Positions 13,098 through 13,384 of a stretch of DNA of 64,000 nucleotides are shown piece after piece. The translations under genes and the position numbers were made by a program. The stretch is from NCBI RefSeq assembly GCF_057098645.1, contig NZ_CM169472.1, one strand, 5' to 3'. Within the stretch, counting starts at the first letter, position 1; each line of letters starts with the position of its first letter. The notes beneath the pieces were generated by a model, which did not search any database, had not been told where the DNA came from, and worked only from the letters and a program-made list of their open reading frames with translations.

Positions 13098-13122
13098 TGT
13101 TATCGCCTTCGTGATGGTAATC

Positions 13123-13132
13123 AGATATATCT
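13123..13132. promoter_or_regulatory. Perfect 10-bp palindrome AGATATATCT just upstream of yqjH
   Basis: Seen directly; the ATCAGATATA core recurs at 13339-13348. Confidence 0.4.
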
Positions 13133-13250
13133 AAATAAAATTCGCAAATGATAATGATTGTTAATCATGATAAATGCAAGCGATTTGTAGAACTGATATG
13201 TCTATAGTCTGATAAGACGAACCGCCTCTTCTCAGGCATCATTACTCAAC

Positions 13251-13285
13251 GCCGGATGCGGCGTGAACGCTTTATCCGGCCTACG
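13251..13285. repeat. REP (repetitive extragenic palindromic) element
   Basis: GCCGGATGCGGCGTGAACGCTTTATCCGGCCTACG. Confidence 0.8.
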
Positions 13286-13348
13286 TGTGAGATGAGTCCA
13301 CGTTTAAAAATCATTTTTACACTTGCAAGAGCGCTCATATCAGATATA

Positions 13349-13366
13349 AATTAGATACATCTAATT
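13349..13366. promoter_or_regulatory. 18-bp near-palindrome AATTAGATACATCTAATT upstream of yqjI
   Basis: 8-bp perfect arms around a 2-bp centre, about 20 bp upstream of the yqjI start. Confidence 0.4.
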
Positions 13367-13384
13367 AAGCAAAAGGAGGCTGAT

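What the first reader, a model, noticed from the sequence alone, without database searches (positions are those of the whole stretch)
13098..13384. Palindromic operator candidates in the yqjH/yqjI divergent region
The 287-bp divergent intergenic region contains a perfect palindrome AGATATATCT (13123-13132), a near-palindrome AATTAGATACATCTAATT (13349-13366) and a repeated ATCAGATATA core near each gene start. The region also holds a REP element. YqjI is a PadR-type metal-responsive repressor with a His/Cys-rich tail, and yqjH is an iron-reductase gene, so these are plausible YqjI and/or Fur operators.
Basis: partly seen in the sequence, partly recalled or inferred. Interest (0 to 1): 0.3.

Follow-up and report, generated by a model that had tools for sequence, protein, structure and literature searches.

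The report
Known NfeR and Fur operators, nfeF–nfeR

Summary

Each repeat alone is weak evidence, since a 10-bp palindrome turns up in 39% of shuffles. The evidence that counts:
- All three repeat features occur together in only 0.02% of shuffles.
- Across 33 yqjH<>yqjI spacers from six genera, the cores GATATATC (site I) and TTAGATATA-nn-TTAGATATATC (site II) are essentially invariant.
- A matrix trained only on non-Escherichia orthologues scores the two sites 23.8 and 19.6 bits. The next best in the 64 kb is 7.7.

These are the NfeR (YqjI) operators at the two divergent promoters, a system published in 2011 and 2014.

They are not Fur boxes (9/19 and 11/19 matches to the consensus). The Fur operator is a separate block at 13144-13173. 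It is the best Fur match in the window and coincides with published Fur ChIP-exo peaks. A second Fur peak maps to 13301-13334.

The "near-palindrome" is a rare allele. K-12 and 3389 other genomes carry the perfect palindrome, and only 26 of 5426 carry this window's T->C.

The REP element is found only in Escherichia.

Verdict: already known, low interest.

The parts
12333..13097 (-). nfeF (yqjH), an NADPH-dependent ferric-chelate/siderophore reductase. It is the target gene of both regulators.
   Evidence: ORF found. RefSeq annotation. Pfam FAD_binding_9 (E=1.5e-37) and SIP (E=1.5e-25).
13119..13136 (.). NfeR (YqjI) operator site I: AATCAGATATATCTAAAT. The perfect palindrome AGATATATCT is 13123-13132, and the invariant core GATATATC is 13124-13131.
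   Evidence: The core is invariant in 33/33 spacers from six genera. It scores 23.8 bits with the orthologue-trained matrix, the top score in the 64 kb. It is invariant in the 7 Escherichia alleles aligned.
13144..13173 (.). Fur operator: overlapping Fur boxes GCAAATGATAATGATTGTTAATCATGATAA.
   Evidence: 19-mer consensus matches of 14/19 at 13144, 13/19 at 13150 and 12/19 at 13154. The 7-1-7 motif matches 12/14 at 13149, the single best of about 64,000 positions, and 11/14 at 13159. AAATGATAATGATT is invariant across the six genera. Fur ChIP-exo peaks: MG1655 P96 corresponds to window 13138-13170 and W3110 P121 to window 13148-13160.
13151..13179 (-). Inferred nfeF promoter: -35 TTGCAT (13179-13174), 17-nt spacer, -10 CATTAT (13156-13151). 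The Fur box covers the spacer and the -10. The predicted start near 13144 puts site I at about +8 to +25.
   Evidence: Inference. TGCAAG (the reverse complement of the -35) is invariant in 33/33 spacers, and the -10 lies inside the invariant Fur block. The generic promoter scan found nothing at its threshold. A published alternative prediction is TTAACA(13164-13159)-18-TTTTAT(13140-13135) (PMC3946193). No transcription start was available.
13190..13207 (-). Candidate weak third NfeR-like box: CTATAGACATATCAGTTC, degenerate in this window and in K-12.
   Evidence: It scores 6.6 bits, the sixth-best hit and third-best locus outside sites I and II in the 64 kb. Other E. coli, Escherichia sp. and E. 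albertii alleles carry a perfect GATATATC core here and score 5-12.5 bits. A GATATAG element sits at about +63 to +66 from site I in many Citrobacter, Raoultella, Superficieibacter and Enterobacter kpr-6 spacers. Function is untested.
13251..13285 (+). REP (repetitive extragenic palindromic) element.
   Evidence: It matches 34/35 positions of the copy at 34299(-), and 31/35, 29/35 and 28/35 of other copies in the window. It folds as a hairpin at -19.2 kcal/mol. It is present only in the Escherichia spacers and absent from the other five genera.
13301..13334 (.). Equivalent of a second Fur ChIP-exo peak (MG1655 P97). It contains the Fur-like TAAAAATCATTTTTA (13305-13319) and abuts or overlaps the nfeR -35.
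   Evidence: PMC10164565 Dataset 2, peak P97 at 3214718-3214751, bound under iron-replete conditions only. Coordinates were converted with a 1977-bp offset, cross-checked against the W3110 peak. The 7-1-7 match is 10/14. An AAAATCA block is conserved across genera.
13323..13350 (+). nfeR promoter: -35 TTGCAA (13323-13328), 16-nt spacer, -10 TATAAA (13345-13350).
   Evidence: TTGC is conserved at a fixed distance from site II across genera. The same TTGCAA-16-TATAAA prediction accompanies the RpoD holoenzyme gSELEX peak in PMC3946193. No transcription start was available.
13339..13351 (+). NfeR site IIa: ATCAGATATAAAT, a half-site copy of T(T/C)AGATATA that overlaps the nfeR -10.
   Evidence: TTAGATATA (TCAGATATA in E. 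coli) is near-invariant across the 33 spacers, and its GATATA core sits exactly 11 bp upstream of the IIb core in 31 of them. It shares the 10-mer ATCAGATATA with site I. It does not score as a full site (-11 bits).
13349..13366 (.). NfeR site IIb: AATTAGATACATCTAATT, covering the predicted nfeR transcription start. It carries a lineage-specific T->C at 13358.
   Evidence: It scores 19.6 bits here against 24.8 bits for the K-12 allele. The core GATATATC is found in 32 of 33 spacers, and the window is the one exception. The K-12 sequence AATTAGATATATCTAATT is a perfect 18-bp palindrome.
13373..13379 (+). Shine-Dalgarno sequence AAGGAGG of nfeR.
   Evidence: Read directly. A GGAG-type purine-rich sequence recurs at this spot in most of the aligned orthologues.
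13385..14008 (+). nfeR (yqjI), a PadR-family winged-helix repressor with a 53-residue N-terminal Cys/His-rich tail.
   Evidence: ORF found. Pfam PadR PF03551 at residues 67-136, E=2.5e-15. The tail has 7 Cys and 12 His.

Best explanation
The spacer is the known dual-regulated divergent control region of nfeF (yqjH) and nfeR (yqjI).

The recognition unit is T(T/C)AGATATA. Two overlapping inverted units form the palindromic core GATATATC.

- Site I (13119-13136) lies just downstream of the inferred nfeF promoter.
- Site II is a composite. Half-site IIa (13339-13351) lies on the nfeR -10. Full palindrome IIb (13349-13366), one helical turn further on, lies on the predicted transcription start.

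Metal-free NfeR bound at these sites blocks RNA polymerase at both promoters. This represses nfeF and autoregulates nfeR. Nickel binding to NfeR lowers its DNA affinity and derepresses both genes.

Fur-Fe2+ acts independently through a separate Fur operator (13144-13173) over the nfeF -10 and spacer. A second, weaker site lies at 13301-13334, next to the nfeR -35.

The REP element in the middle is a passenger specific to Escherichia.

Shown here: the positions, statistics and conservation of the motifs; their specificity; and where Fur is occupied, taken from published ChIP-exo data.
Inferred: the promoter hexamers and the occlusion mechanism.
From the literature, partly from memory: NfeR binding, the nickel response, and cooperation between the two sites.
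For: - Gene identities: 100% identity to E. coli O145:H28 genomes annotating nfeF/nfeR, with PadR and SIP domains.
- Divergent synteny holds in 31 of the 32 related loci, from six genera; the other contig ends before nfeF.
- Phylogenetic footprints: the GATATATC core is invariant in 33/33 spacers and the flanking tAAAt nearly so. TTAGATATA-nn-TTAGATATATC keeps a fixed 11-bp step, while the surrounding spacer diverges and its length varies from 137 to 287 bp.
- Specificity: a matrix trained only on non-Escherichia sites scores the window's site I at 23.8 bits and IIb at 19.6 bits. The next best of 128,000 positions is 7.7 bits.
- The three repeat features co-occur in 0.02% of shuffles.
- Within Escherichia, substitutions fall between the motifs, not in them.
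- Site II overlaps the nfeR promoter TTGCAA-16-TATAAA, which was predicted independently at an RNA polymerase gSELEX peak (PMC3946193).
- In Klebsiella, deleting nfeR raises nfeF expression 85-fold. That paper also restates that NfeR represses nfeF and that nickel relieves the repression (PMC7981267).
- Fur: the consensus scans put the best Fur site of the window at 13144-13173. Fur ChIP-exo peaks map to 13138-13170 and 13148-13160, with a second at 13301-13334.
- From memory of the Wang et al. 2014 abstract: YqjI site I lies at the yqjH promoter; site II at the yqjI promoter gives an extended footprint; the two are nearly 200 bp apart; REP is not required. This fits the 202-bp gap between 13136 and 13339 and the composite nature of site II.
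Against: - The published YqjI DNase I footprints could not be read. Base-level agreement is therefore unverified.
- No binding experiment can be done here. Conservation shows constraint but does not say which protein binds.
- PepA also selects this spacer in gSELEX (PMC8249747).
- The generic sigma-70 scan found no promoter at its threshold, and two alternative nfeF promoter assignments exist. Where site I sits relative to the transcription start is therefore uncertain.
- The distance between sites I and IIb ranges from 96 to 230 bp with no conserved helical phase. This gives no support to a strictly phased loop between the sites.
Confidence: 0.9

Rival explanations
1. The palindromes are Fur operators. 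This is the reader's "and/or Fur" option: Fur-Fe2+ would bind AGATATATCT and AATTAGATACATCTAATT directly.
For: The sequences are AT-rich and palindromic, as Fur boxes are. nfeF is Fur-regulated (PMC3212961; PMC10164565). The second Fur ChIP-exo peak ends at 13334, only 5 nt from site IIa.
Against: Matches to the 19-bp Fur consensus are 9/19 around site I and 11/19 around site II, against 14/19, 13/19 and 12/19 for the true cluster at 13144-13172. The best 7-1-7 match within site II is 8/14, and site I's core is not among the six best in the spacer. The ChIP-exo peaks (13138-13170, 13148-13160, 13301-13334) exclude both palindromes. The motif GATATATC is unrelated to GATAAT hexamers.
Confidence: 0.03
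2. The repeats are chance products of an AT-rich promoter region, or are conserved only because they are -10 or start-site elements, and no dedicated regulator binds them.
For: A 10-bp perfect palindrome occurs in 39% of shuffles of this spacer. IIa contains the predicted nfeR -10 TATAAA.
Against: All three features co-occur in 0.02% of shuffles. The same 11-13-nt motif is kept at both ends of the spacer in six genera while the flanking sequence diverges. Site I and IIb lie downstream of the inferred -10 elements, where promoter function imposes little constraint. The motif is absent from the rest of the 64 kb.
Confidence: 0.03
3. Another DNA-binding protein, for example PepA, whose only gSELEX target in the genome is this spacer, is the main ligand of the palindromes. 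It would act instead of NfeR or together with it.
For: After six cycles, PepA gSELEX selected only the nfeF/nfeR spacer (PMC8249747). The position of the peak within the spacer is not given in the text I read.
Against: The motif is found wherever nfeR is found, next to the gene, as expected for an autoregulated local repressor. Deleting nfeR derepresses nfeF 85-fold (PMC7981267). PepA could bind anywhere in the 287 bp, including the AT-rich central part.
Confidence: 0.04

Closest known systems
YqjI (NfeR) binding sites I and II in the E. coli K-12 yqjH-yqjI intergenic region (Wang, Wu & Outten, J Bacteriol 2011, 193:563; Wang et al., J Bacteriol 2014, 196:3199)
   Same: It is the same locus. 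The spacer has the same 287-bp length, with 283/287 identical bases. Site I is identical. There is one site at each divergent promoter, with about 200 bp and a REP element between them.
   Different: Site IIb carries T->C at 13358, the centre of the palindrome. This allele is exact in only 26 of 5426 complete E. coli genomes, all apparently of the O145:H28 group. It costs about 5 bits in the orthologue-derived matrix. I could not verify footprint borders at base level.
Fur box: 19-bp consensus GATAATGATAATCATTATC, or the 7-1-7 form TGATAATnATTATCA
   Same: A genuine Fur operator lies in the same spacer at 13144-13173. It has overlapping matches offset by 6 and 4 bp, sits over the nfeF -10 and spacer, and is occupied by Fur in ChIP-exo under iron-replete conditions.
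   Different: They match the consensus in 9/19 and 11/19 positions and lie outside the ChIP-exo peaks.
PadR-family operators (for example PadR or LmrR-type inverted repeats of the ATGT-N8-ACAT kind; this consensus is recalled from general knowledge, not tested)
   Same: The regulator has a PadR winged-helix domain. It recognises a dyad-symmetric site that overlaps its own promoter and a divergent target promoter.
   Different: The NfeR motif (TTAGATATATCTAA, core GATATATC) contains no ATGT/ACAT half-sites. Its half-sites overlap rather than being spaced by 8 bp. Site II adds a direct half-site one helical turn away. The inducer is a metal bound by a Cys/His-rich N-terminal tail, not a phenolic acid or a drug.
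REP (repetitive extragenic palindromic) elements of E. coli
   Same: The 35-nt sequence at 13251-13285 matches other REP copies in the window at up to 34/35 positions and folds as a stable hairpin.
   Different: There is nothing unusual about it. It is absent from the orthologous spacers of the five other genera. From memory of the 2014 abstract, it is dispensable for YqjI regulation.

Membership tests
NfeR (YqjI) operators of the nfeF-nfeR spacer | Located in the divergent spacer between the siderophore-reductase gene and the PadR-family repressor gene | tested here: met
   The synteny holds in 31 of the 32 related loci; in the other the contig ends before nfeF.
NfeR (YqjI) operators of the nfeF-nfeR spacer | Sequence identity with the K-12 region in which the sites were defined | tested here: met
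   283/287 bases are identical to MG1655. Site I and IIa are identical, and IIb has one substitution at 13358.
NfeR (YqjI) operators of the nfeF-nfeR spacer | The motif is conserved wherever the regulator is conserved, and is specific to the locus | tested here: met
   The GATATATC core is present at both ends of the spacer in all 33 spacers, apart from the window's own IIb substitution. The matrix scores are 23.8 and 19.6 bits, against 7.7 for the next best in the 64 kb.
NfeR (YqjI) operators of the nfeF-nfeR spacer | Protection by purified YqjI in DNase I footprinting at these exact bases, and loss of binding with nickel | not testable with these tools
   The primary papers are not held. From memory of the abstracts only: site I at the yqjH promoter, an extended site II at the yqjI promoter, nearly 200 bp apart.
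   9/19 around site I and 11/19 around site II. The best 7-1-7 match within site II is 8/14.
   The ChIP-exo peaks convert to 13138-13170, 13148-13160 and 13301-13334. None covers 13123-13132 or 13349-13366.
Fur box (asked of the separate block 13144-13173) | Consensus match, overlapping hexamer array, promoter overlap, Fur occupancy | tested here: met
   14/19, 13/19 and 12/19 matches at 13144, 13150 and 13154. The 7-1-7 match of 12/14 is the best in the window. The block is invariant across genera.
PadR-type ATGT-N8-ACAT operator | ATGT and ACAT half-sites separated by 8 bp | tested here: not met
   Sites I and II contain no such half-sites (sequence). The consensus itself is recalled from general knowledge.
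REP element | A GC-rich imperfect palindrome of about 35 nt, repeated in intergenic regions of the same genome | tested here: met
   Four further copies in the window match at 28-34/35 positions. The hairpin folds at -19.2 kcal/mol.

The most novel reading that the evidence does not exclude
The control region may hold more than the two published NfeR sites and one Fur box. Four observations point that way:

1. A third NfeR-like box lies just upstream of the nfeF -35, at 13190-13207. It is degenerate in K-12 and in this window but carries a perfect GATATATC core in many other Escherichia alleles.
2. A second Fur-occupied site (13301-13334) abuts site II. Each divergent promoter would then carry an adjacent NfeR + Fur pair.
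3. The O145:H28 lineage carries a rare T->C at the dyad centre of site IIb. This is the only departure from the invariant core among 33 spacers, and it could weaken autorepression and shift the nickel/iron response of that lineage.
4. The Cys/His-rich sensory tail of NfeR is drastically remodelled or lost in Enterobacter and Raoultella while the operators stay invariant. Effector specificity may therefore differ between genera.
Probability: 0.25. Interest if true: 0.3.

Novelty: already known. Interest (0 to 1): 0.1.

Why it matters
For discovery it matters little. The NfeR/Fur control of nfeF was worked out experimentally in E. coli K-12 in 2011 and 2014, so the finding re-identifies published operators.

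The check still yields four useful things:
- It gives a cross-genus consensus for the NfeR box: T(T/C)AGATATA units, the GATATATC core, and a fixed 11-bp IIa-IIb step.
- It shows that REP is a passenger found only in Escherichia.
- It flags a natural operator variant in the O145:H28 lineage that could be tested for altered nickel/iron regulation.

Tried and rejected
- **Primary footprinting papers.** I tried Wang et al. 2011 (DOI, PMC3019823) and 2014 (DOI, a guessed id PMC4135690, and the correct PMC4135662). None is held.
- **Full-text searches.** I searched for the operator sequences themselves, for YqjI with PadR or footprint, for phrases such as 'yqjH-yqjI' and 'YqjI binding', and for the later Blahut/Outten YqjI paper. 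All returned only citations or unrelated hits.
- **mBio 2015 Fur ChIP paper.** No supplementary files are held for it.
- **Generic sigma-70 scan.** It found no promoter in the spacer at its threshold. The promoter assignments therefore rest on conservation and on a published prediction.
- **Helical phasing.** I tested whether the distance between sites I and IIb keeps a constant helical phase across genera, as a phased loop would predict. It does not: the distances are 96-230 bp, or 9.1 to 21.9 turns with scattered fractions.
- **IIa as a full site.** Rejected. It scores -11 bits and keeps only the left half-site.
- **Fur reading of the palindromes.** Rejected (and the ChIP-exo data).
- **Salmonella as a natural nfeR-less control.** Considered but not pursued.

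Full report
**1. The observation**

- AGATATATCT lies at 13123-13132 and is unique in the 64 kb.
- AATTAGATACATCTAATT lies at 13349-13366. It has 8-nt perfect arms and a 2-nt centre (inverted repeat I11).
- ATCAGATATA lies at 13120 and 13339, the only two copies in the window.
- The spacer is 287 bp. It sits between a minus-strand ORF (12333-13097) and a plus-strand ORF (13385-14008).

The 1676-bp region is 100% identical to E. coli O145:H28 genomes, where the genes are annotated nfeF and nfeR, the current names of yqjH and yqjI. Pfam gives PadR for NfeR, and FAD_binding_9 plus SIP for NfeF.

The REP call is also right. The 35-nt sequence at 13251-13285 matches other copies in the window at up to 34/35 positions and folds as a hairpin.

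**2. Is it more than chance?**

Taken singly, barely. In 5000 dinucleotide shuffles of this 38%-GC spacer:
- A 10-bp perfect palindrome appears in 39% of shuffles.
- An inverted repeat with 8-nt arms appears in 3.1%.
- A 10-nt direct repeat appears in 5.3%.
- All three appear together in 0.02%.

The decisive evidence is comparative. One scan of representative genomes with the NfeR protein returned 32 loci from Escherichia, Citrobacter, Enterobacter, Lelliottia, Superficieibacter and Raoultella. In 31 of them nfeF lies divergently upstream; in the remaining one the contig ends before that point.

The spacers vary from 137 to 287 bp and are otherwise poorly alignable. Anchored alignments nevertheless show sharp footprints:
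- GATATATCtAAAt (site I)
- AAATGATAATGATTg
- TGCAAG
- TTGC
- tTAGATATA-nn-TTAGATATATC (site II)

A weight matrix built only from the non-Escherichia sites scores the window's site I at 23.8 bits and site IIb at 19.6 bits. The next best of about 128,000 positions scores 7.7 bits.

Among seven Escherichia alleles, substitutions fall between the motifs rather than in them.

**3. Anatomy**

The conserved unit is T(T/C)AGATATA.
- In site I and in site IIb, two units overlap in inverted orientation and form the palindromic core GATATATC.
- Read towards its own gene, each site begins (A/T)TTAGATATATC.
- Site II has an extra direct unit, IIa (TCAGATATA, 13340-13348). Its GATATA core lies exactly 11 bp upstream of the IIb core in 31 of the 33 spacers.

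Promoters are inferred, not shown.
- **nfeR:** -35 TTGCAA (13323-13328), 16 nt, -10 TATAAA (13345-13350). An RpoD gSELEX study predicted the identical pair (PMC3946193). IIa therefore lies on the -10 and IIb on the predicted start.
- **nfeF:** I favour -35 TTGCAT (13179-13174), 17 nt, -10 CATTAT (13156-13151). The invariant TGCAAG block has no other obvious explanation. That places site I at about +8 to +25.
- **nfeF alternative:** the same paper proposes TTAACA-18-TTTTAT instead, which would put site I on the start site.
- The generic scan found no promoter at its threshold.

**4. Fur**

They are not. They match the 19-bp consensus in 9/19 and 11/19 positions.

A separate block, 13144-13173, holds overlapping matches of 14/19, 13/19 and 12/19 at 13144, 13150 and 13154. 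It also holds the best 7-1-7 Fur match in the whole window, TGATAATGATTGTTA at 12/14. Its core is invariant across the six genera.

Published Fur ChIP-exo data (PMC10164565, Dataset 2) list two iron-replete peaks in the MG1655 spacer, 3214555-3214587 and 3214718-3214751, and one in W3110, 3215198-3215210.
- Mapping the W3110 peak directly onto the record gives window 13148-13160.
- A 1977-bp offset between the two MG1655 sequence versions places the first MG1655 peak at 13138-13170, with the same centre as the W3110 peak. This cross-validates the conversion.
- The same offset places the second MG1655 peak at 13301-13334. That stretch holds a weaker Fur-like TAAAAATCATTTTTA (10/14) and a conserved AAAATCA block next to the nfeR -35.

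**5. The "near-palindrome"**

K-12 differs from the window at 4 of 287 positions. One is 13358. K-12 has T there, giving a perfect 18-bp palindrome AATTAGATATATCTAATT whose core is identical to that of site I.
- A 55-nt query carrying the K-12 allele matches 3389 complete genomes exactly.
- The window's allele matches only 26 of 5426, consistent with the O145:H28 group seen.
- Among the 33 spacers compared, the window is the only one to break the GATATATC core of IIb.
- The change costs about 5 bits in the matrix.

**6. Mechanism**

The literature establishes the following. NfeR represses nfeF, and nickel relieves the repression (restated in PMC7981267, citing Wang 2011 and 2014). Deleting nfeR in Klebsiella raises nfeF 85-fold (same paper). 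nfeF belongs to the Fur regulon.

From my memory of the 2014 abstract, which I could not verify here:
- YqjI protects site I at the yqjH promoter.
- It gives an extended site II footprint at the yqjI promoter.
- The two sites are nearly 200 bp apart and must both be intact for full repression.
- REP is dispensable.

The anatomy found here fits this. A 202-bp gap separates sites I and II. Site II is composite. REP is restricted to Escherichia.

My inference is that NfeR blocks RNA polymerase at the nfeR -10 and start site, and at the early transcribed region or start of nfeF. Fur-Fe2+ independently occludes the nfeF -10 and spacer.

The distance between sites I and IIb is not constant in helical phase across genera: 96-97, 166-185 and 217-230 bp. 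Comparative data therefore do not support a rigidly phased loop.

**7. Comparison with known systems, and novelty**

This is the known system itself, not an analogue. Membership in "NfeR operators of the nfeF-nfeR spacer" is met on location, sequence identity, conservation and specificity. Only the footprint comparison is untestable with these tools.

Membership of the palindromes in "Fur box" was tested and not met. The separate block does meet it.

The motif is unlike the ATGT-N8-ACAT operators recalled for other PadR proteins.

Novelty: already known. Interest is low.

**8. Residual leads**

- A weak third box at 13190-13207 scores 6.6 bits here. Other Escherichia alleles have a perfect core and score up to 12.5 bits.
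- There is a second Fur peak at 13301-13334.
- PepA's only gSELEX target in the genome is this spacer.
- The O145 allele of site IIb is a natural operator variant.
- The NfeR sensory tail is strikingly plastic while the operators stay invariant:
  - Escherichia: 53 residues, 7 Cys.
  - Citrobacter: 30-81 residues, with HHEGCC repeats.
  - Enterobacter and Lelliottia: about 10 residues, no Cys.
  - Raoultella: 31-44 residues, His-rich, no Cys.

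Noticed in passing
window 13358 (site IIb centre): A T->C substitution relative to K-12 breaks an otherwise perfect 18-bp palindrome and the otherwise invariant GATATATC core. The allele is exact in only 26 of 5426 complete E. coli genomes (the O145:H28 group), against 3389 with the K-12 allele. It costs about 5 bits in the orthologue-derived matrix.
   Followed up: yes
window 13190-13207: A candidate third NfeR-like box lies just upstream of the inferred nfeF -35. It is degenerate here and in K-12 (GACATATC, 6.6 bits). Other E. coli, Escherichia sp. and E. albertii alleles have a perfect GATATATC core there (5-12.5 bits). A GATATAG element sits at a similar offset in many Citrobacter and Raoultella spacers.
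   Followed up: partly
window 13301-13334: This is the equivalent of a second Fur ChIP-exo peak in MG1655 (P97, iron-replete only; PMC10164565). It contains a Fur-like TAAAAATCATTTTTA and a conserved AAAATCA block next to the nfeR -35. Each promoter therefore has a Fur site on the inner side of its NfeR site.
   Followed up: partly
window 13098-13384: A gSELEX study reports that the aminopeptidase and DNA-binding protein PepA selects only this nfeF/nfeR spacer from the whole K-12 genome (PMC8249747). The position of the peak within the spacer, and any function, are unknown.
   Followed up: no
window 13385-13543 (NfeR residues 1-53), and loci L005-L033: The Cys/His-rich N-terminal tail of NfeR is highly plastic. 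Escherichia has 53 residues with 7 Cys and 12 His. Citrobacter has 30-81 residues with repeated HHEGCC units. Enterobacter and Lelliottia have about 10 residues and no Cys. Raoultella has 31-44 His-rich residues and no Cys. The DNA operators stay invariant throughout.
   Followed up: partly
loci L014, L016-L022, L024, L026 (Enterobacter and Lelliottia spacers): These spacers are compact, 137-147 bp, with site I and site IIb only 96-97 bp apart. Extra AGAT-type repeats (TTTTAGATTGCATCTGAATATATCTTAGATATAG) fill the space between the Fur box and site II. The long AT-rich central segment and REP are absent.
   Followed up: partly
window 13251-13285; L002-L004, L035, L036: The REP element is present in every Escherichia spacer examined and absent from the other five genera. 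Within E. coli, the segment just upstream of REP exists in two haplotype families that differ by an 11-bp indel.
   Followed up: partly
window 13141: The window's T at 13141 (C in K-12) lies in the variable spacer between site I and the Fur box. The 76-nt query spanning it (13100-13175) matches only 24 genomes exactly. This suggests the O145:H28 spacer haplotype carries several private substitutions.
   Followed up: no
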